Positions 3,416 to 29,811 are shown, counted from the first letter of the stretch. The stretch is 64,000 nucleotides of DNA from Dictyostelium discoideum (GCA_000004695.1 CM000153.2:2368001-2432000), one strand, 5' to 3'. Made by a program: numbers and translations. The notes: generated by a model from the letters alone, not told the origin.

Positions 3416-4808
3416 TTATTTTTTTAAAGTTACACCAACACCATAATTATTTGAATTCATTTTAATTAAACCATTATCTAATAATTGAAAAGCATCATTT
3501 TCAAATAGTTGAGTTGCATCATCAATTAATAAACCACCATCGAGATCACCACCAAAGTCAGATAATGAACATAAGAGATGAGCAGCGGCACTAACATTTA
3601 AACTTGAAGCTACCATTGAACCAATCCAAGTTTTTAAACCCAATTCTTTTGCTTTTAATAATGTTGAAAGACCTGGTCTAATTCCACCAGTTTTTTCAAG
3701 TTTTATATTTACACCATGAACTAATTGAACTAAACCATCCAAATCCTTTTCAGTACAAATTGATTCATCAGCGAAAATGAGTAAACCTTTATCTTGATAT
3801 TCCTTTTTAATTGATACCCATTCGTTTAAATGTTGAATATCAATTTTTTGATCTTTGTTGACTGTTTTTAAAGTTTCAATTGGGAATGGTTGTTCAACCA
3901 TTGATATTAAATCAGCCATTGGTGATAGCTTTTCCAAATATTTTCTTGCAACACTTGGGGTCCAAGATGAATTTGCATCGACTGAAATTTTTGAAATTGT
4001 TCTTGTTGAATTATTATTTAATAAACGTTTTTGAACAGAGTCAATGATATTCATACCTTTTTCAACGTCAGCATCTAATTTAATCTTTAAAAATCCTGTA
4101 TATTTACTACCGAAATCAGTTGAATCCATAATTTCCTCCATTGTTGGACACATTGAAATTGTATAATAAAATGGTTTCAATGATTCACTCTCTGGAATAT
4201 TAATTAATTTATAAATTGGTTGTTTTAAAAATTTACCCCAACCATCTAACAATGCCATTTCAATTGCACATCTTGAAGCATAGGAATAATCTTTACTATT
4301 CTCTTTACAATTATCTAAACATTCAAATAAAAATTGATAAACACTTTGTTGATAATCACCATTCATTTCTTTTCTTAATTCTTTAAAATATTCTTTTTGT
4401 GAAATTTTATTAAATGCATCATAATGATATGATTCTTCTTGTTGTTGTTGTTGTTGTTTTTGTTTTTCATCAATTTCTTTAATCCAACTATTAAAATAAG
4501 TTTCAATATCATTGTAATCTGCTAAATAACATAATGGTTTCTTTGGTGGTAAACCACATTCTCCAAATCCTCTAATATCCTCTACTTTAATTTCAATTAA
4601 TGCATTGGTTCTTGTTGTTGTTACTGAATGTGCTGTTCTAAATTTAATGAAAAAAGTGTTAAATGAAATAAAATATTAAAATATAAAAATAAAATTTAAT
4701 AAAAATAAAATCTTACCCAAATGGATTTCTTAGATTTAATTTATATTGTTTAATTGATAATTCAACATTTATTTTATTTTTAAATAAAAATTTCAACATT
4801 TTTGTCAT
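3416..4808 (-). CDS. Enolase-superfamily enzyme of the mandelate racemase / muconate lactonizing enzyme family (dipeptide-epimerase / o-succinylbenzoate-synthase-like); 2 exons approx 4717..4808 and 3416..4637
   Basis: Exon 1 MTKMLKFLFKNKINVELSIKQYKLNLRNPFG ends at a GTAAGA donor; a TTTAG acceptor joins it in frame to TAHSVTTTRTNALIEIKVEDIRGFGECG (capping domain). Barrel domain carries KIKLDADVEKG, ISVDANSSW, FADESICTEKDLDGL and NIKLEKTGGI, matching MR/MLE metal-ligand spacing. Confidence 0.75.
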
Positions 4809-5103
4809 AATTATGGTAAATATAAAAAATAAAAAAATAAAAAAAATTAAAAAAAATAAAAAATTTGATATTCTGTTTTTTTTTTTGATCAAAAAATTCA
4901 TTTTCAATTTTTTTATTAAATTAACAATATATTCCCTATAGTTGTTATTGAAAATAAAGAAACAATTACAAAAAATGGATGATAAATAATTAAAAATAAA
5001 CTTTTTTAAATAAAAAAAAAAAAGAAAAAAAAAAAAAAAAAAAGTGGAAATTATTTTGATTGGTAGTATTAACCATTGTGTATTATTCTAAAATTTTTAT
5101 TAT

Positions 5104-6095
5104 TTACATCAATGAGCAAGCTCCATCATTGGTTAATTCACCCTTTAAATTGTTTTCTATAGATTGGGGTGGTGGTGGTGGTGGTGCTGAAATTTCACCA
5201 CTTTTTTTTGTACTATTGCTGTAGTTGTTGTTGTTATTATTGTTATTGTTATTAGATGATGAATTTTCAATAATTTTTTTTTTTAAGGGGTCCAATTTCT
5301 TTAAAATATTATTTGTAGCATTACCAATACTAGAATATGTTGTATTGGTGTTATTATTAGTTGTATTATTATTATTTACAGTTTTTAAAGATTTTGGAGA
5401 TTTTGGAGGTTCTTGGTTTTTAACTTGTTGGAGTTGATCATGTTTCATTTGTTGTTGTTTTTTTATTGCTAAATGATTTTGTCCTTCTGTATTTAAAAGA
5501 TGGAATGAGTTACTTCTTCTCTTTGGTTGATTGCTTTGTTGTTGTTGTTGCTGCTTTGATTGACTATCTTTTTTATTTACATTATCATTATTATTACTAT
5601 TACTATTATTACAATTATTAATGGTGGTGTTGGTACCAAAATTATTACCACTACTAGTTAAAGTTGGAGAATAATTTCCATTTGGAATTCTAAAAGATTC
5701 AATAATTAATGGATTTTCATAAGCTATTTGTTTTAAATCTTCAAATGATATTCTCTCTTTTGCATCATTTATGAAATCTTCTTTCTTTTGAAAATAACCG
5801 GATTTAACTTCATTTGGATAATCCTTTAGAAATGGTTCGAAATAAATGAAATGAACATGGTCAATTAATTCTCTTAATTCACTTCTATTGATGAAATCTT
5901 TATGTTCAATTGCAAATAATTTAAATATAAATGTTAACTTTTGATCTATATTACCATGTGATAATGTTGATAATGATTCAACCAATTCTTTAAAATTTAA
6001 AAGATTATCATCATCTTTATCCATTAATTTAAACATTCTATCCAATAAATTATTGTTTTTATTTTCATTGTTATTATTATTGCTATTATTATTGC

Positions 6096-6162
<67 letters not shown>

Positions 6163-7772
6163 ATTTAAATTCCAATTCCAGTCAGGTAAAAATCTTAAAA
6201 TTAATTGTTGAAATTGTAAGAAACCAATACCAGTACCATCAGTTGATAAATATTCAAATTCTTCTTTTAAATCTTTTAATTTCTCTAAATCGAATTTAGT
6301 TGATTTTAGTAGATAACGAAGATCATTATCTTCTTCTTTTTGTTTAACTTGTTTCTTTGTAATTTCCCAATGTTTTGATTTTAAATCTTGAATTCTCTTT
6401 TTAGAGAGTACAATACCAATTCTTTTATAGGAATTTTCAATTGTTTTGAAAAGGTCAGGATTAAATGGTCTACCCGATAGAATATCAGTTACTTGACCAT
6501 GATTCTTTGCCAACATCAATGAATTTAAATTCATTTCAATTAAACCTAATGCAATCTCTAATAGTACTCTACTACCTCTAATAATGAAATTATCCCAAAT
6601 TATTAATGCACATTGTGCAGGTAATGATACTGTAAATAAACATAAAAACCATTCCATTGATAATACTGGTATAATGGCTCCAATATTCTTTAAATGTTGA
6701 TTCAATTCTGGAAATATCTCTTCCATTAAATCTAATAATACATTTTGATCAACTTGACTTCCTAACATTGTCTTTGTATAATAATCTGTAAGTAATTGAT
6801 CTGTAATATGTGATAAACACCAAAACACTTGCTCCTCTATATATACATATATATATATATAAATATACAAATATATATATATAAATAAATATAATTTATT
6901 ACTATTAATAATTATTAATTTTAAAATTATAAATTATAAATTATAATACAAACCATTTTCAATAATCATTAATAAAAAAAAAGTTATATAATTTAAAGAT
7001 TGACAATAACCAACAGTTGTTGTTTCACTAAAAACAAATAAAATTCTTTTTAATTTATCTTTAAATTCTGGATCTAATGATTTTGGATGTGTTGGAAATG
7101 TTCTCTCTAAATCCTATAAAAATTGAAAAAATTAAAAATATATTAGAATAATATTATAAAATCAATCTATTAATAATAATAAATAAATAAAAAACATACT
7201 GATAAAATTTCATTTTTATATTTTAAATTATTTATATTAGATTTACTACTAGTACTATTAAAAGATTCTGTTGATGTTGATAATATTAAATCATTATAAC
7301 TTGAATTCTTTGGCATTGTTGTTGATGTTGATGTTGATGTTGTTGAATATGGTGATGATGGTGTTGAAAATATTTGGAGATCAGTTAAATCATTTGATAA
7401 TTCATCTAGATTGAAATTTTCATTTTTTAATAATGACCAATAATAACCTTTTTTAAAATCTAAATTATAACAATCCAAGAATATTGTCCAAATTGATTTA
7501 CGATATTTTGGATGAATACCATGTGATAATAGTTCTCTAAATGATTCTTCATGTGAATATCTTTTTAAGTATCTAAATATATCCTCTTCTGTATGACATG
7601 TAGTTTGAATATAGTGTGTCCATTCTTCTAATCTTTCATCTTCATTCTTTTTTTGTTGTTTTAATTCTTTAATTAATTCTGAATTCTCTGAATACCTATA
7701 CTCAAATCCATATTCATCTATAAATATATCTTGATCAATTATAATATCTGTATCTTCTTCAAATGTTTCCAT
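5104..7772 (-). CDS. TBC-domain Rab GTPase-activating protein with a C-terminal EF-hand-like segment and poly-N/Q tracts; 3 exons approx 7200..7772, 6954..7113, 5104..6836
   Basis: Exon 1 has RELLSHGIHPKYRKSIWTIF (TBC motif A). Exon 2 has DLERTFP (Arg finger) and YCQSLNY (Gln finger). Exon 3 continues the TBC C-lobe (LLDLMEEIFPELNQHLKNIGAIIPVLSMEWFLCLFTVSLP) and has MFKLMDKDDDNLLNFKELVESLS (EF-hand-like). Donors GTATGT/GTTTGT and TATAG acceptors were read on the minus strand. Confidence 0.75.
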
Positions 7773-8163
7773 TTTTTTATAAAATAATTTTTTTTTTTTT
7801 TTTTTTTTTTAAATATATAAATTTACACAAAAATAAAAAAAAAAATAAAAAAATAAAAAAAAGAAAATATATATATTATATATAAATTAAAATTTATACA
7901 TATAGAACAATGAGATAATCTATTTTTGGTGGACAAAAAAAAAAAAAAAAAATCTTTTTTTTTTTAACGAAGGGTGAAAACGCCTTTTAACAAAAATAAA
8001 AAAAAGTTAAAAAAATAAAAAAAAAATAAAAAAATAAAAAAAAAAAAACAAAAATAAAAAAAAAACAAAAATGAACTCCTAAATTTTTTTTTTTTTTTTG
8101 GCATGATATTATTTTGATCATTATTTATTTATTTATTTATTTATTTTTTTCTAAACATGATAA

Positions 8164-10598
<2,435 letters not shown>

Positions 10599-20565: not shown

Positions 20566-21651
20566 ATGTCTTTATCTTTGGGTGATATCAAATTTCCAGA
20601 TAATTGGGATTTAATTCCAAATGAAAAAAATTACATTGATTATGTTTACAAGGAATCAATTGAATTAGAAGTATGGAGACCAAATAATAAAAGAGATTTA
20701 ATGGCACATAATAATGTTGTAAGTTTGGCTAAATATTTCTGGCCACATGTTGATTTCAATAGATTAGTAATGGGTGGAGAATTAATGGTATGGTTCTTTT
20801 CATTTGATGATGTTCTTGATGCTGGTATCTACACTGATGAAAAACAAATGGATTTGGTGAAAAGAATGGATAATGTGTTTATTAATGGTACTGTTGAGTC
20901 TGATGCAACTGGTCCAGAGAAGATGGCTCTCCACCTTAGAAAGAAATGTGAAGTAATGTGTGGCAAAAGAAGAAAGGATACCTTCAACCGTTTCATCTCT
21001 TCATGTGTCCAATGGGTCGATTCAATTATTCCATTCAATAAACTTCGTTCAGCTCAAGGCACATCCCCACATTTAGAATTATACTCATACTTGAGAAAAG
21101 TTAATATCGGTGCATATCCATGTGTCACTCTTACTGAAGTAATGTTAGATCATGAAATTGAATATTACATTTGGTCAGACCCAAAATGGATCAAAATGAA
21201 CGAAGACATCGCCATCATCACCACCTTAATCAATGATTTAGTATCCTATGAAAAAGAAGTCAATGATCAAGCAGGTGACTTGAATCCATTATACTTCCTC
21301 CAAAATCAAAAGAATATTCCATTACCAGATTCTTACAAACAAGTGGTTGATCTCATTGATTTCTGGGTAAAAGATTACCAAACCATGGAACAAAGTCTCT
21401 TAAATGAAATGGAATTTAAAGATTCAAAACAAAGAAGTGATATGGAATTCATATTGGAACATCTTCGTTATTTAGCTAGTGGTTCAAAGAAATGGTCAAT
21501 GCAAACACCTCGTTATTGCTCTCCAACTTCTCCATTCATTGAAATGAGAACTAAACCATCAACTCCAGTTATGAATTCTACAAAAAAACAAAAAATTGAT
21601 CATGTTCCATCTCAATCATTTATTTCAACACCAATTGATTTAAATAATTAA
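20566..21651 (+). CDS. Class I terpene synthase (sesquiterpene-synthase-like, microbial type); single exon
   Basis: 361-aa ORF with the Asp-rich motif [11 protein letters not shown] (DDxxD, nt 20806..20820) and the downstream NSE/DTE triad [11 protein letters not shown] (NDxxSxxxE) at the expected spacing of about 140 aa. Size typical of D. discoideum TPS proteins. Confidence 0.8.
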
Positions 21652-21894: not shown

Positions 21895-22761
21895 AATTTC
21901 CATAGTTTATAATTAGAAATAAAAAGTCGGTTATTTTTATTTTATTTTTTAATTTTTATAAAAATTGAATAAAAATTTTATTGAGTTTTATTTAAAATGT
22001 TAATTGAAGGTGATAATCTGAAAATTAAATAACGTTTAAATAAAAATTTAAAAAAAAAATTAAAATTTAAAAAAAAAAAAAAAATAAAAAAAAAAAAAAA
22101 CTGTTTAAAATGTTTAAAATTATTGATAGGTTAAAAAATGGATTTACAAATAAATGGATATTGTTCCATTCTAAAATGAAAAAAAAAATAAATAAAATTA
22201 ATATCTTAAAAAAAAACCAACATAATTTAAAAAAATAAAAATTGCTAAAATATATTTTTTAAATATGATGTCATTCAAATGATTTTAATTTTAAATAATT
22301 TTTACAAAATGATATTTATTGGATAGTAAATAGCTGAATTTTATTAATTTAATTTTTTAAAGTGGACCAATTCCATTATACAATTTGATTATATAAAAAT
22401 GGTATACTTGTAAAAAATTAATGGCGCAATTAATTTTATCTTTTTTTTAAAAAAATATTTATTATTTTATTATTCTATTTAAAACTATTAAAAATAGTTT
22501 TTTTTTTTTATTTTTTTTTTTTAACTGTATTAATAAAATAATGGAATAACAAAAATTATGTTGTAGGGAATTTTCCATAAAATTTCACTACAGTAGCGTA
22601 GTGAATTTTATTATTTAATTTCCCTACAGTAGCGTAGTGAAAAAAAAAAATCACTGACCTTAAATTTTTTTTTTTTTCAAAAAACAAATAAAGTTTATTA
22701 AATTGAAATTTTATTTTTTGTTTTAATTATTATTTTATTTATTTTTATTATAATTATTGTT

Positions 22762-22801
<40 letters not shown>

Positions 22802-23984
22802 CAATTTTTTTTTTTTAAATTTTTTTCAATTTTTATTTGTTTATTAAATTGTAATTTTATTTTTTGTTTTAATTATTATTTTATTTATTATTATTGTTAA
22901 TTTTTTTTTTTTTTCAATTTTTTTTTTTTTAATTTATTTTTATTAATTTATTTTTATTAACTCCCTGAGTTGTTCAATTGCTTGATTTACCATATCACTG
23001 TAAACACTGCACACAATTGAATTTTTTCTAGCTTTGTTACCTCTGGTGCATTTGATGTTTTTGCATTTTCCTTTGTATACAAAAAAGTCCAAATATAATT
23101 CGTTTTCTATTACAGTTTTTACACAATGTTGGTGAAATTGTTTTGATTTTAATTCTAATGCTTCTAACATCATATTTGAATTTTTAACGATTAAAGCATC
23201 ACCACTATTTACATATAGTACTTTGGCTGCTTTTTCGAGGAATTTAGTCAAATTTTCCTCTGAATCTAACTATTCTTCATTGCCATATTCAATGGCTAAA
23301 TTTCTTAAGAGTTTTATCGAATCTATTAATTCTTCGATCATTCTTTTTTTTTGAAATTTTTTTTTATTTTGTTTTTTCAATTTTTTTTTTTTATTTTGTT
23401 TTTTCAATTTTTTTTAAGTTTTATTTTTTTTTATTTTTTTTTATTTTTTTTAACAAATGTAATTTTTTTTTATTTTTTTCAATTTTTTTTTTTTTTTAAT
23501 TTTTAATTTTTTTTTTTTTTTTTAATTTTTTGTGTTGATTTGTGTTTTTTTTGTTTTTTTGATTTGGCCACTTGTTTTTATTTTCTAATTTCCCCATACC
23601 CCCTTCTATTAATTGCAACCAAATCAAGTTCTAATTTTTGTGTCCTTGTTGACTTTGTTTTTGCAACTTTTTTTGAAGGTATCACATTAACGATTTTTCC
23701 TATTGATGGTGATTTGGAAGGTGATTTAAATGGTGATTTAAATGGTGAATTGGAAGGTGATTTAAATGGTGAATTGGAAGGTGAAATGGATGGTGATTTG
23801 GAAGGTAATTTAAATGGTGATTTGGAAGGTGATTTAAATGGTGATTTAAATGGTGAATTGGAAGGTGAAATGGATGTTGATTTGAGAGGTGATTTGGATG
23901 TTGATTTGAGAGGTGATTTGGATGGTTTAGAATGTGATTTTAAAGGAGGTTTATTAACAATTGGTATCTTATGANNNNNNNNNN

Positions 23985-24074
23985 NNNNNNNNNNNNNNNN
24001 NNNNNNNNNNNNNNNNNNNNNNNNNNNNNNNNNNNNNNNNNNNNNNNNNNNNNNNNNNNNNNNNNNNNNNNNNN
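23985..24074. other. Assembly gap (run of 90 N)
   Basis: Literal N characters. Confidence 1.
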
Positions 24075-24318
24075 TGTTCTAAAAATATCAACTGTTGATT
24101 GTTTATAAAGAACCAACTTGTTACCTCCTACAAAACCAGAGTATAAACCTTTTTTTTGAAGGCTATTGATTCCATCTTCCAAAAATTCAAGTTTATAAAG
24201 TTGTTTAGTGTCTTCCTGTATTACCTTATGAATTTTACACAAAATCAATATTTTCTATTAGAATTAAATATAAAATTTGTTAATTATTACTGTTTCATAT
24301 ATTATTAATCTTTATGTT

Positions 24319-25770
24319 TTAATTACTTACATTATTTTTTTTAATTTCTAGAAAGAGTACAGTATCACCAACTTTCAATCCCTTTGGTGGTTTTGAATTC
24401 CATTGATTTTGGTAACTTGTGAGATTTTCAAGAATAATAGCTGTTCTTTCTTCTTTTGAAACATCTGAAACACCAATTGATTGAGAGTCTTGTTCTGATT
24501 GAACATTAATAAACAAAGGAACAATACCAACAGCTTGAGATGGTTTCATTTTAATTGTTCTTGTTTTTGTATTATTGTAATCATACAAAGCTTGTTTTAA
24601 TAGTTCAGAAAGAGACCTAGAAGTACCATCAAGAAAACTAAAATTTATTTATAAATGATTAATTAATAAACATATCGATAATTTATATTGTTCACAATAT
24701 CATACTCTTGTTGTTTTAATTTTGAGATCCTCTCCTTGATAGTTCGATTCAATCTTTCTACCATACCTTGAGTTGTTGGTGTACGAGGAGCTCCATGTGC
24801 TGACTTGGAGCCTGGAAAAAGTTTTAGGAATTCTTTTTGGACTTTGTTTTTAAATTCACGTCCATTATCGCAGTGCCATACTTTCACAGGTTTGCCAAAG
24901 TACGTGAGAGCCAAAAAATTGTATATGGGAACTGTTCTCTTTGTTGTCAAACATCTAAAAAATAAATGATAATTAAAATAAAAAAAGAAAACTAATAAAT
25001 TAATAAATAAAAAATAAATACCTTCCAGTAGCAAATTTTGTAAAAGAATCTATGCATAGAATAATGTAAACAACATCGGTGTCGTACGGTTGTACAGAGT
25101 CATATTGGATAAGATCATCTAGTTTAGTTAGTATCTTTTCATTATCATCATCGTATGTAACTTTTTCTTTATGTTCACCTTTAATTGATGTTAAATCATA
25201 AACCAATCTTGAGTATTCCTCGGTATCTACAATTGGAGCAAAATCCTTTGTTATACCTATTAATTTATTTAAATTATTAAAAGAGTTTTAATATAAAAGT
25301 TACAAAACATCATATAAAAATGATTGATACCAAACCTTTTATTCTATTTCGTTGGCAAATGTCACACGTATCTACTGCATCAGATACAAAAGAATACAAT
25401 CCCATATTATAATATTTAGTCTTGTAGTTCCCATAGGTTGCATCTCTTCCTATATGACCTTTATGCATTTCTTCCCAGAGTGATACCATTCTATAATCAT
25501 TAATTACTTCTAAACACACTTCTTTTGATATATTTCTATCTCCGCCACAATTCATGACTTTTTTTTCAATTCTAAATAATTTTTCTTTTCTGTTTCTGTT
25601 TTTTATTGGTCAGAATTTAAAAAATGATTGTGTTATTGTAAGGAAAAATATTTACTCATCATGTAAAAATTTATAATTTTTATGTTTAGTATTTTCAAAA
25701 TTATTATCTTCAATAAATTTTAAATAATTTATAATTTCATTTATTTTATCTTGTTTCATTTTGGGAAAAT
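24319..25770 (-). CDS. Integrase-like transposase of the mobile element (multi-exon, partly degenerate; N-terminal exon MKQDKINEIINYLKFIEDNNFENTKHKNYKFLHD at about 25668..25770)
   Basis: See the mobile element entry. The exon chain was assembled by hand and is interrupted by the N gap further downstream, so completeness is unknown. Confidence 0.45.
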
Positions 25771-25774
25771 GAAA

Positions 25775-25809
<35 letters not shown>

Positions 25810-26344
25810 TGTTGGGGAAAAAAAAAAAAAGTTTTGGCCCAAAAAAAAAAAAAAAATTAAATTAAAAAAAAAAAAAATTAAATTAAAAAAAAAAAAAATT
25901 AAAAAACCTTTTTTTAAAACTATTATTCAATTAAAAAATAATATTTTAATAAACTTTTTTTGTTTTTTGAAAAAAAAAAATTTTAGGGCCAGGAATTTTT
26001 TTTTTTCCTTCCCCTCCTGGGGGAAATTTAATTAATAAATTTCCTTCCCCTCCTGTAGTGAAATTTTTTTTAAAATTCCCTCCCACCCTTTAATTTATAA
26101 AATTTATTATGAATAAAAAAAATTATTTTTATATTTCCAAAATTTATTATATTTTAAAAGAAAAAAAAATTTAATTTTTTAATTAATGAATAGAAAAAAT
26201 TTTATTTTCATTTTTTTTTTTGGGGGTTACCCCCTTTTTTTTTTTTTTTTTTAGTGTCCAATATGGTGATTTTTCCAATTGATAAAAAAAATTTTTTTTT
26301 TTTAAATTTTTTTTTTTTTTTTAAAAAAATTCAATTTCTTTTTT

Positions 26345-26560: not shown

Positions 26561-29811
<3,251 letters not shown>

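What the first reader, a model, noticed from the sequence alone, without database searches (positions are those of the whole stretch)
22570..26065. Integrase-type transposase gene broken by spliceosomal introns inside a terminal-repeat-bounded element (Ginger/Tdd-4-like DNA transposon rather than an LTR retroelement?)
The rve-type integrase (HHCC + DDE + C-terminal GDTV motif) is normally part of an intronless retrotransposon pol. Here it is interrupted at least four times by sequences with canonical Dictyostelium donor and acceptor signals. Two examples are FLHDE|gtaaat...tttag|IEKKVMNCGG and FATGR|gtattt...tttag|CLTTKRTVP. There is no recognisable RT/RNase H or gag nearby. The ends of the roughly 3.5 kb unit share the motif AAATTTCACTACAG / CTGTAGTGAAATTT, each end carrying it in both orientations. 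This fits the cut-and-paste Ginger/Tdd-type transposons, whose transposase derives from gypsy integrase. The minus-strand S-P-x-K repeats at 23540..23974 also deserve attention. The unit contains an N gap, so the reference assembly collapsed a repeat here. The local copy may be degenerate.
Basis: partly seen in the sequence, partly recalled or inferred. Interest (0 to 1): 0.55.

Follow-up and report, generated by a model that had tools for sequence, protein, structure and literature searches.

The report
Known Tdd-4 DNA transposon copy
This is an ordinary, apparently intact copy of Tdd-4, a cut-and-paste transposon of the slime mould Dictyostelium discoideum described in 1999, whose intron-containing transposase gene resembles a retroviral integrase.

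Summary
Window 22559-26086 is one copy of Tdd-4 (Ginger2/Tdd group) on the minus strand.

- **Gene:** five GT-AG introns join six exons into an uninterrupted 437-codon frame up to the N gap. It carries an HHCC zinc finger, a D,D,E core and an SH3-like tail. Fifteen SPxx repeats follow the gap.
- **Family:** the protein is 92-99% identical to D. discoideum proteins. One of them (DDB_G0282919) is labelled Tdd-4 by dictyBase.
- **Ends:** about 153-170-nt inverted repeats start TGTTG.
- **Mobility:** another D. discoideum strain has an empty site at exactly this position, between a terpene synthase gene and the beta-COP gene. The mobile unit is therefore only this roughly 3.9-kb element, with no reverse transcriptase.

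- The true ends lie 11 and 21 bases outside the given coordinates.
- The 100-N gap replaces about 439 nt of unique internal sequence, not a collapsed repeat.
- The "degenerate" right end is a stretch of poor reference sequence (about 25880-26330) that also garbles unique flanking DNA.

One loose end remains: a 108-codon ORF lies in frame directly behind the annotated stop codon.

The parts
22554..22558 (.). Target-site duplication, left copy (AATTA)
   Evidence: The empty site in L003 reads ...CAAAAATTA|AATTAATAAAA. The window reads ...CAAAAATTA|TGTTGTAGGG.
22559..26086 (-). Whole Tdd-4 element: 3,528 positions including 100 N, about 3,868 bp once the gap is filled
   Evidence: Boundaries come from the empty-site comparison and from alignment of both ends to the complete copy in L001. 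The L001 copy is 3,791 bp after removal of its three secondary insertions. PMC2836005 gives 3,839 bp for TDD-4.
22559..22712 (.). Terminal inverted repeat at the 3' end of the gene, starting TGTTGTAGGG
   Evidence: Inverted repeat I1. It is about 98% identical to L001 over 22555-23494, which includes this arm.
22584..22641 (.). Two direct 22-nt sub-repeats, TTCACTACAGTAGCGTAGTGAA (22584-22605 and 22620-22641), each internally palindromic. They are candidate transposase binding sites.
   Evidence: One search found 0 and 1 mismatch, with none expected by chance. The DNA fold z-score is -5.55. The binding function is inferred.
22946..23269 (-). 108-codon ORF in frame directly behind the TAG stop. 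Its function and its link to the transposase mRNA are unresolved.
   Evidence: The probability of staying open by composition is about 2.6e-5. The only homologues are other Tdd-4 copies. There is no Pfam hit.
23270..23342 (-). Exon 7 of the AX4-type gene model (G-MIEELIDSIKLLRNLAIEYGNEE-stop, TAG at 23272-23270)
   Evidence: P0003 (DDB_G0292352) ends ...AINRRGMIEELIDSIKLLRNLAIEYGNEE. The same TAG is present in L001.
23343..23599 (-). Intron 6 (GT...AG, 257 nt, A-rich), as used by the AX4 gene model. If it is not spliced, the frame ends YGEIRK-stop at about 23578.
   Evidence: Models P0001 and P0002 leave it unspliced.
23600..23974 (-). Exon 6, part distal to the gap. It holds 15 tandem SPxx repeats (about 23670-23957) followed by a basic tail.
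   Evidence: The 12-nt period is shown.
23975..24074 (.). Assembly gap (100 N) replacing about 439 nt (146 codons) of exon 6
   Evidence: One search gives the N run. Searches show L001 6209-6650 spanning it. P0002 and P0003 carry the missing peptide SPNIQKDIDSF...RLRGRP.
24075..24254 (-). Exon 6, part proximal to the gap
24255..24330 (-). Intron 5 (GTAAGT...AG, 76 nt)
24331..24637 (-). Exon 5 (307 nt), from the end of the catalytic core to the SH3-like segment with GDTV
   Evidence: Independent models of L001 and L002 use the same length.
24638..24705 (-). Intron 4 (GTATGA...AG, 68 nt)
24706..24954 (-). Exon 4 (249 nt), holding catalytic D221 (HCDNG) and E258 (MVERLN)
24955..25021 (-). Intron 3 (GTATTT...AG, 67 nt)
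25022..25256 (-). Exon 3 (235 nt), holding catalytic D134 (VYDLTS) and an acidic insertion of about 40 aa between the first two core strands
   Evidence: In the P0001 model, strand 113-119 carries the homologous D. The sister family has an exon of the same length.
25257..25335 (-). Intron 2 (GTTTGG...AG, 79 nt)
25336..25571 (-). Exon 2 (236 nt), holding the HHCC zinc finger (H71, H74, C104, C107)
25572..25655 (-). Intron 1 (GTAAAT...AG, 84 nt)
25656..25759 (-). Exon 1 (104 nt), with ATG at 25759
   Evidence: The L002 model has the same 104-nt first exon.
25934..26086 (.). Terminal inverted repeat at the 5' end of the gene, garbled by poor sequence
26087..26091 (.). Target-site duplication, right copy. 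AATTA is expected and CCTTT is read.
   Evidence: Alignment to the composite of element, AATTA and empty-site flank needs only one gap. The bases themselves are unreliable.
25880..26330 (.). Low-quality stretch of the reference sequence, crossing the boundary between element and flank
   Evidence: There are 69 mismatches to the other strain here, against 0 in about 3.9 kb of the remaining unique flanks. Twenty-five of them lie in unique flank. Sixty-six of the 69 repeat a neighbouring base, where 28 are expected at random.

Best explanation
Window 22559-26086 is one copy of Tdd-4, the Dictyostelium discoideum cut-and-paste DNA transposon of the Ginger2/Tdd group. It is inserted in the intergenic spacer between a terpene synthase gene and the beta-COP gene.

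The element is transcribed from the minus strand. Five GT-AG introns, plus a sixth after the SPxx region, are spliced out. The product is a transposase of about 700 aa built like a retroviral or Ty3 integrase. It has an N-terminal HHCC zinc finger, an RNase-H-fold D,D,E catalytic core (D134, D221, E258) and an SH3-like segment. These are followed by a linker, 15 SPxx repeats and a basic tail.

By analogy with integrases and IS3/IS481 transposases (inferred, not shown here), the protein binds the sub-repeats in the roughly 150-170-nt terminal inverted repeats. It then cuts at the TG...CA termini and joins the ends to AT-rich target DNA with a 5-bp stagger, which produces the 5-bp duplication.

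The sequenced parts of this copy have no frameshift or stop codon in exons 1-6. The copy looks damaged only because the reference sequence has a 100-N gap and a low-quality stretch over the right end.
For: Spliced ORF and introns. Independent gene models on other copies use the same exon lengths, and the positions are conserved in a sister family about 47% identical.

Integrase domains: Pfam. D and E align to RSV and HIV-1 integrase. The AlphaFold model of the 92%-identical P0001 matches full-length PFV, Ty3 and HIV integrases (E=1.7e-14, about 390 aligned columns).

Family identity: 92-99% identity to D. discoideum proteins P0001-P0003 and P0011. P0011 is DDB_G0282919, labelled Tdd-4 in PMC12405889. 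Length, 5-bp TSD, TGTNR termini, H2C2 plus DDE and the absence of GPY/F and YPYY all match the TDD-4 and Ginger2 description in PMC2836005. Fifteen SPxx repeats and six introns match my recollection of the abstract of Wells 1999 (NAR 27:2408), which I could not read here.

Mobility: the complete copy in L001 has the termini TGTTGTAGGG...CCCTACAACA and the TSD TCATC. The syntenic empty site in L003 places the left junction exactly and predicts the TSD AATTA.

Sequence quality.
Against: - The type sequence of Tdd-4 (Wells's GenBank entry, or the Repbase TDD-4 consensus) could not be compared directly. Family identity rests on a dictyBase label carried by a 93%-identical partial protein and on published descriptors.
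- The right-hand terminus and the right TSD copy in the window cannot be read reliably (CCTTT instead of AATTA).
- About 439 nt of the coding sequence are hidden by the gap, so the intactness of this particular copy is unproven.
- The 3' end of the gene is unsettled. Three public gene models end differently, and a 108-codon ORF follows the stop in frame.
- rve and rve_3 score below Pfam's curated cut-offs (27.8 against 32.6 bits, and 23.6 against 26.5 bits).
- The mean pLDDT of the structure model is only 55, although the core scores 70-88.
Confidence: 0.95

Rival explanations
1. It is a fragment of an LTR retrotransposon (Ty3/gypsy-like, such as Skipper or DGLT-A), of which only the integrase part survives.
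For: The protein is integrase-like. Dictyostelium TE clusters do hold gypsy-type elements next to Tdd-4 copies, as shown by the RVT_1/RT_RNaseH genes in L001, L002 and L006.
Against: - The terminal repeats are inverted, not direct.
- The empty site shows that the inserted unit is only about 3.9 kb and is bounded by those repeats.
- The flanks are host genes.
- The gap is filled in other copies by 146 codons of linker, not RT.
- The gene has conserved spliceosomal introns, which retrotransposed copies would have lost.
Confidence: 0.01
2. It belongs to the sister family (Tdd-5 or another Tdd-like family) rather than to Tdd-4 itself.
For: A second family with the same architecture exists in Dictyostelium: P0004 and P0005, 45-48% identical and with shared intron positions. 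I could not align the window to the type sequences.
Against: - The window is 93% identical to DDB_G0282919, which dictyBase labels Tdd-4.
- It is 92-99% identical to a multi-copy family. The P0002 cluster has 19 members. That fits the 19 Tdd-4 elements against two Tdd-5 occurrences that dictyBase lists (PMC3386910).
- It has 15 SPxx repeats, as I recall for Tdd-4, and no SPxx tract is evident in P0004 or P0005.
Confidence: 0.02
3. The insertion is an assembly artefact: a Tdd-4 copy wrongly placed here in the reference. The internal gap and the poor right junction would be symptoms of that.
For: The element contains a 100-N gap. Its right junction lies in about 450 nt of very poor sequence. Another strain has no element at this site.
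Against: - The left junction is clean sequence running from unique flank straight into the terminus.
- The right junction, though noisy, still shows the inverted repeat running into the correct unique flank, with 4-5 extra bases where the duplication should be.
- Presence or absence between strains is what a mobile element is expected to show.
Confidence: 0.02
4. It is a domesticated, host-owned integrase-derived gene rather than a transposon.
For: It has introns, an intact ORF and known transcription. Tdd-4 ORFs are up-regulated in the rblA mutant (PMC3386910) and are among the differentially expressed genes tabulated in PMC12405889.
Against: - It is multi-copy at non-syntenic sites.
- It is bounded by inverted repeats and a target duplication.
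- It is absent from the orthologous locus in another strain.
Confidence: 0.01

Closest known systems
Tdd-4 of Dictyostelium discoideum (Wells 1999, NAR 27:2408; TDD-4 in Bao, Kapitonov & Jurka 2010, PMC2836005)
   Same: - Same species: the exact flanking protein and 100%-identical flanks occur in a D. discoideum assembly.
- Length of about 3.8-3.9 kb and long terminal inverted repeats beginning TGT.
- 5-bp target duplication.
- Integrase-like transposase with HHCC and DDE, split by six introns.
- Fifteen SPxx repeats.
- 93% identity to a protein that dictyBase labels Tdd-4.
   Different: Nothing of substance differs. This copy has two more SPxx units than the L001 copy (24 nt) and a few point differences. 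My recollection of Wells's abstract is that intron 6 was reported as AT-AA with alternative 5' sites. The AX4 gene model, by contrast, uses a GT-AG intron at 23599-23343. I could not check the paper.
Tdd-5-like sister family (P0004 and P0005 in D. discoideum and D. cf. discoideum)
   Same: It has the same domain order. Its intron positions are conserved: a 235-nt exon 3 and neighbouring exons of 260 and 252 nt. It has the same D,D,E context, HCDNGREFKNK...TTQGMVER.
   Different: It is only 45-48% identical in protein. P0004 and P0005 show no evident SPxx tract and have no counterpart of the 108-codon 3' ORF. That these proteins are Tdd-5 is my assumption.
Ginger2 transposons of animals and fungi (PMC2836005)
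   Same: [quoted passage not shown]
   Different: Those elements make 4-bp duplications, whereas Tdd-4 and Tdd-5 make 5-bp ones (PMC2836005). No close non-Dictyostelium relative appeared in my search: the next hits are metagenomic rve proteins at E of about 1e-9.
Integrases of retroviruses and Ty3/gypsy retrotransposons (PFV 3l2q, Ty3 7q5b, HIV-1, RSV)
   Same: They share the three-part architecture and the catalytic D,D,E. These are the best structural matches and the best sequence matches in the PDB.
   Different: Here the protein is encoded alone, with introns, in an element that has inverted rather than direct repeats and no RT, RNase H or gag. It carries an insertion of about 40 aa between core strands 1 and 2, and a long C-terminal extension with SPxx repeats.

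Membership tests
Tdd-4 / Ginger2-Tdd DNA transposons | Transposase with an H2C2 (HHCC) zinc finger and a DDE core related to LTR-retroelement integrases | tested here: met
   Integrase_H2C2 scores 33 bits against a cut-off of 25.5. rve and rve_3 fall just below their cut-offs. D221 and E258 align to RSV D121/E157 and HIV-1 D116/E152. The fold matches PFV and Ty3 integrase.
Tdd-4 / Ginger2-Tdd DNA transposons | Terminal inverted repeats (not direct LTRs) | tested here: met
   A 153-nt inverted repeat at 22560-22712 and 25934-26086. The four ends of the window and L001 copies align over about 170 nt.
Tdd-4 / Ginger2-Tdd DNA transposons | Termini TGTNR...(CA) | tested here: met
   TGTTG at 22559. 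L001 has TGTTGTAGGG...CCCTACAACA at its two ends. The right terminus of the window reads CCCTCCCAC, in poor sequence.
Tdd-4 / Ginger2-Tdd DNA transposons | 5-bp target-site duplication | tested here: inconclusive
   Met for the family: TCATC on both sides of the L001 copy. For the window copy, the empty site plus the left junction predict AATTA. The right flank has the right number of extra bases, but they read CCTTT in low-quality sequence.
Tdd-4 / Ginger2-Tdd DNA transposons | No reverse transcriptase, RNase H or gag in the mobile unit | tested here: met
   The empty site in L003 shows the unit is only the TIR-bounded element. The hidden 439 nt encode a linker in other copies. The neighbours are terpene synthase and beta-COP.
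Tdd-4 / Ginger2-Tdd DNA transposons | Ginger2 rather than Ginger1: no GPY/F and no YPYY motif | tested here: met
   Neither motif occurs in the window protein or in P0001-P0005.
Tdd-4 / Ginger2-Tdd DNA transposons | Size of about 3.8 kb (3,839 bp in PMC2836005) | tested here: met
   3,528 positions with 100 N standing for about 439 nt gives about 3,868 bp. The L001 copy is 3,791 bp after its insertions are removed.
Tdd-4 / Ginger2-Tdd DNA transposons | Six introns and about 15 SPxx repeats near the C-terminus (Wells 1999 abstract, recalled from memory) | tested here: met
   Five GT-AG introns plus intron 6 of the AX4 model. Fifteen SPxx units. The criterion itself could not be checked against the paper.
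Tdd-4 / Ginger2-Tdd DNA transposons | Multi-copy, with near-identical copies labelled Tdd-4 | tested here: met
   Copies in L001, L002, L004 and L006, and AX4 proteins on two different chromosomes. DDB_G0282919 is labelled Tdd-4. dictyBase lists 19 Tdd-4 elements (PMC3386910).
Tdd-4 / Ginger2-Tdd DNA transposons | Nucleotide identity to the type sequence (Wells's GenBank entry, or AAFI02000006.1:352615-356458) | not testable with these tools
   None of the DNA collections offered holds Dictyostelium reference records.
LTR retrotransposon (Ty3/gypsy type) | Direct long terminal repeats and a pol with RT and RNase H | tested here: not met
   The repeats are inverted. There is no RT in the unit.
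Polinton/Maverick | 15-20-kb element with protein-primed DNA polymerase, protease, ATPase and capsid genes beside the integrase | tested here: not met
   The inserted unit is about 3.9 kb. It holds one integrase-type gene plus a 108-codon ORF.

The most novel reading that the evidence does not exclude
The 108-codon ORF at 22946-23269 (minus strand) lies in frame directly behind the TAG that ends the AX4-type transposase model. It may be a genuine, functionally uncharacterised coding part of Tdd-4. It could be a second small cysteine/histidine-containing protein, or a C-terminal extension reached by alternative splicing or stop-codon readthrough.

It is far longer than composition allows by chance (P of about 2.6e-5). 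It is kept in every full copy I could inspect and has no homologue outside Tdd-4. I could not check whether Wells 1999 already describes it.
Probability: 0.15. Interest if true: 0.25.

Novelty: already known. Interest (0 to 1): 0.08.

Why it matters
It matters little as a discovery. Tdd-4 has been known since 1999, and it founded the Ginger2/Tdd group, which is of interest for the evolutionary link between DNA transposases and retroviral or LTR-retrotransposon integrases.

Three practical points follow:
- This locus is a presence/absence polymorphism between D. discoideum strains. It gives a clean empty site and confirms exact boundaries.
- The reference sequence here has a 100-N gap and about 450 nt of unreliable bases that extend into the promoter-side spacer of the beta-COP gene. 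These bases should not be read as real variation.
- Gene models for Tdd-4 disagree at the 3' end, and transcript data could resolve that.

Tried and rejected
- **Papers not held.** Wells 1999 (PubMed 10325432, PMC148809) and Glöckner 2001 (PMC311061) are not in the library. Statements about 145-bp TIRs, six introns, the AT-AA intron 6 and 15 SPxx repeats rest on my memory of the abstract.
- **P0003 locus.** A look-up of P0003 (DDB_G0292352), meant to fetch the AX4 locus, returned nothing on record. P0003 differs from the window copy at two residues, so it is another copy.
- **3' ORF in the sister family.** tblastn of the 3' ORF against the sister-family loci gave no hit, apart from a nested Tdd-4 fragment in L004.
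- **3' ORF homologues.** A full HMMER search of the 3' ORF found only Tdd-4 copies, plus two low-complexity repeat proteins that I regard as spurious.
- **P0017 locus (L006).** I fetched it to see whether a gene model joins AINRR to the 3' ORF. It is a degenerate copy that lacks the SPxx tract, and it is uninformative.
- **Literature on thug-S/DDT-S.** A search meant to name the 760-bp secondary insertions returned almost only irrelevant papers.
- **Window scans.** tRNA scans of the window and of L001 found nothing.
- **Readings considered and rejected.** LTR retroelement remnant, Polinton fragment, domesticated gene and misassembly. The reasons are given under the rival explanations.


Full report
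**Organism and setting.** The window is extremely AT-rich, about 15-30% GC. The single-exon 361-aa ORF at 20566-21651 is a terpene synthase. It is found, residue for residue, in a D. discoideum assembly (GCA_054883475.1, locus L003). There the flanks are 100% identical to the window, apart from homopolymer lengths. The gene to the right, starting at 26561, is beta-COP, with Adaptin_N and Coatamer_beta_C domains in L003. The finding therefore sits in an intergenic spacer of D. discoideum.

**The gene.** Three-frame translation of the minus strand shows integrase-like segments in shifting frames. Five GT...AG introns of 84, 79, 67, 68 and 76 nt (7-20% GC) join the exons:
- 25759-25656
- 25571-25336
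- 25256-25022
- 24954-24706
- 24637-24331
- 24254-24075

Together these form one open frame of 437 codons that runs into the N gap. NCBI gene models made independently on other copies use exons of 104 (L002 model only), 235, 249 and 307 nt. A sister family only about 47% identical keeps a 235-nt exon flanked by exons of 260 and 252 nt. The introns are therefore a conserved feature and not an accident of this copy.

**What the protein is.**
- Pfam gives Integrase_H2C2 (E=6.7e-8, above its cut-off). rve (3.1e-6) and rve_3 (4.3e-5) fall just below theirs.
- Against the PDB, the best sequence matches are RSV, HTLV, PFV and HIV-1 integrases. HCDNGREF aligns to the second catalytic Asp, and QGMVERLN aligns to the catalytic Glu.
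- The motifs sit at H71/H74/C104/C107, D134 (VYDLTS), D221, E258 and GDTV 365.
- I modelled the 92%-identical full-length homologue P0001. Mean pLDDT is 55 and the core scores 70-88. The model has the beta1-beta2-beta3-alpha-beta4 order of the RNase H fold, with the first Asp on strand 113-119 and an insertion of about 40 residues before the next strand.
- The best structural matches are whole PFV, Ty3, SIV and HIV integrases, at E down to 1.7e-14 over about 390 columns.

**Beyond the gap.** The same exon continues with 15 SPxx units (12-nt period, about 23670-23957) and a basic tail.

**Family.** The only close relatives are Dictyostelium proteins:
- P0001: 708 aa, 92% identical.
- P0002: 693 aa, in a cluster of 19 members.
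- P0003: DDB_G0292352 of AX4, 99% identical.
- P0011: DDB_G0282919 of AX4, 93% identical.

DDB_G0282919 is listed as 'DDB_G0282919_TE, Tdd-4' in a dictyBase-derived table (PMC12405889). dictyBase lists 19 Tdd-4 elements and two occurrences of Tdd-5 (PMC3386910).

Bao et al. 2010 (PMC2836005) describe TDD-4 as follows: 3,839 bp, more than 10 copies, a 5-bp duplication, TGTNR termini, H2C2 plus DDE, and no GPY/F or YPYY motif. Every one of these descriptors fits. The six introns and 15 SPxx repeats match what I recall of Wells's 1999 abstract, but I could not read that paper.

**Ends and mobility.** The longest inverted repeat in the region has arms 22560-22712 and 25934-26086. I aligned the two window ends with the two ends of the complete copy in L001. 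This gives a consensus of about 170 nt that starts TGTTGTAGGGAATTTTC. It holds two direct 22-nt sub-repeats, TTCACTACAGTAGCGTAGTGAA. Each sub-repeat is internally palindromic. The L001 copy is flanked by TCATC on both sides.

The decisive result is L003. In that strain the terpene synthase and beta-COP genes are 1,318 bp apart, against 4,910 bp in the window. The spacer there reads ...CAAAAATTA|AATTAATAAAATTT..., where the window has ...CAAAAATTA|TGTTGTAGGG.... This has four consequences:
- The insertion is exactly the TIR-bounded unit, 22559-26086.
- The expected duplication is AATTA.
- Nothing else travelled with the element, and in particular no RT or RNase H.
- The element is polymorphic between strains, as expected of a mobile element.

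**The gap and the 'degenerate' end.** The N run covers 23975-24074. In L001 the corresponding stretch is about 439 nt. In P0002 and P0003 it encodes the linker SPNIQKDIDSF...RLRGRP. So unique internal sequence is missing, not a collapsed tandem repeat. With the gap filled, the element would be about 3,868 bp.

Identity to the L001 copy is 99.9% over 24258-25688 and 98% at the left end, but it drops to 87% over 25683-26081. I aligned the window to a composite of empty-site flanks plus the L001 element. All 69 mismatches of the right-hand region fall between 25800 and 26400. Twenty-five of them lie in unique flanking DNA. The remaining 3.9 kb of unique flank has none. In 66 of the 69 mismatches the window base simply repeats a neighbouring base, where 28 would be expected at random. 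Examples are GGGTGTTATCACT read as GGGGGTTACCCCC, and CACTACGCTACTG read as CCTTCCCCTCCTG. This is the signature of poor base calls, not of mutation. The right TIR and the right TSD copy (read as CCTTT) are therefore unreliable, and the copy itself need not be degenerate. Exons 1-6, as far as they are sequenced, have no stop codon or frameshift.

**The 3' end.** Public models disagree. P0001 and P0002 read through to YGEIRK-stop. The AX4 model P0003 removes a GT-AG intron (23599-23343) and ends ...RRG-MIEELIDSIKLLRNLAIEYGNEE-stop at TAG 23272-23270.

Directly behind that TAG, in the same frame, 108 further codons are open (23269-22946). From the local composition this has a chance probability of about 2.6e-5. 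The TAG and the ORF are both present in L001, which is 99% identical. The ORF has no Pfam hit, no counterpart in the sister family and no homologue outside Tdd-4 among 1.8 billion representatives. There is no GT between the exon-7 start and the TAG (seen directly), so a simple extra GT-AG intron cannot remove it. How, or whether, this ORF is expressed remains open.

**Mechanism.** Shown here:
- an intron-containing gene for a three-domain integrase-type protein with the catalytic D,D,E in place;
- long inverted repeats with TG...CA ends;
- a 5-bp duplication in a sister copy;
- presence or absence of the element at a precise site.

Inferred from the known chemistry of retroviral integrases and IS3/IS481-type DDE transposases:
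- the protein binds the TIR sub-repeats;
- it cleaves at the CA-3' ends;
- it inserts the ends into AT-rich DNA with a 5-bp stagger.

From memory of Wells 1999: the element was caught transposing into a plasmid, and alternative splicing around the SPxx region was proposed to give a transposase and a shorter inhibitor.

**Verdict.** The element is an already known one, so its interest is low.

Noticed in passing
L001:3108-3867, 5299-6056, 7108-7867 and 8978-9736; also L004 (about 3609-4368, 5068-5826, 9677-10435): In strain GCA_054883475.1, the Tdd-4 copy of L001 carries three near-identical insertions of about 760 bp, and a fourth lies just outside it. Their termini are CACAGCrAAGAAAAA...TTTTTCTTyGCTGTG, and their interior is rich in TTTAAAG repeats. 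The first insertion is flanked by a TA duplication, and the second is accompanied by a 30-bp deletion. One insertion sits in an intron of the sister-family gene in L004. None is in the window or in L003. This looks like a very active non-autonomous DNA transposon that prefers transposon clusters. [quoted passage not shown]
   Followed up: partly
window 25880-26330: The reference sequence here is unreliable. There are 69 mismatches to another strain, and nearly all duplicate a neighbouring base. The stretch reaches to within about 230 bp of the beta-COP start codon (26561). Apparent variants or motifs in this promoter-side spacer should not be trusted.
   Followed up: yes
window 22946-23269 (minus strand): A 108-codon ORF (LDSEENLTKFLEK...CKNIKC...IEQLRELIKIN) lies in frame immediately after the transposase stop codon. 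It is specific to Tdd-4 copies. Different annotations call it as a separate small gene (P0029, 110 aa), fuse it to a neighbouring gene (P0030) or ignore it.
   Followed up: partly
L004:7300 onward and L004:9025: A Tdd-4 copy, with its terminus TGTTGTAGGG at 7300, is inserted directly behind or into the 3' end of a sister-family (Tdd-5-like) element. This gives nested DNA transposons in a chromosome-end cluster that also holds chromo- and integrase-bearing retroelements.
   Followed up: no
window 25022-25256 (protein residues about 137-176): The catalytic core has an acidic insertion of about 40 residues (IKGEHKEKVTYDDDNEKILTKLDDLIQYDSVQPYDTD) between the strand carrying the first catalytic Asp and the next strand. 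This is why Pfam's rve match starts only at profile position 23 and stays below the cut-off.
   Followed up: partly
window 20566-21651 and 26561 onward: The host genes flanking the insertion are a terpene synthase (Terpene_syn_C_2) and beta-COP. The element's 5' end, on the promoter side, points toward the beta-COP start about 470 bp away.
   Followed up: no
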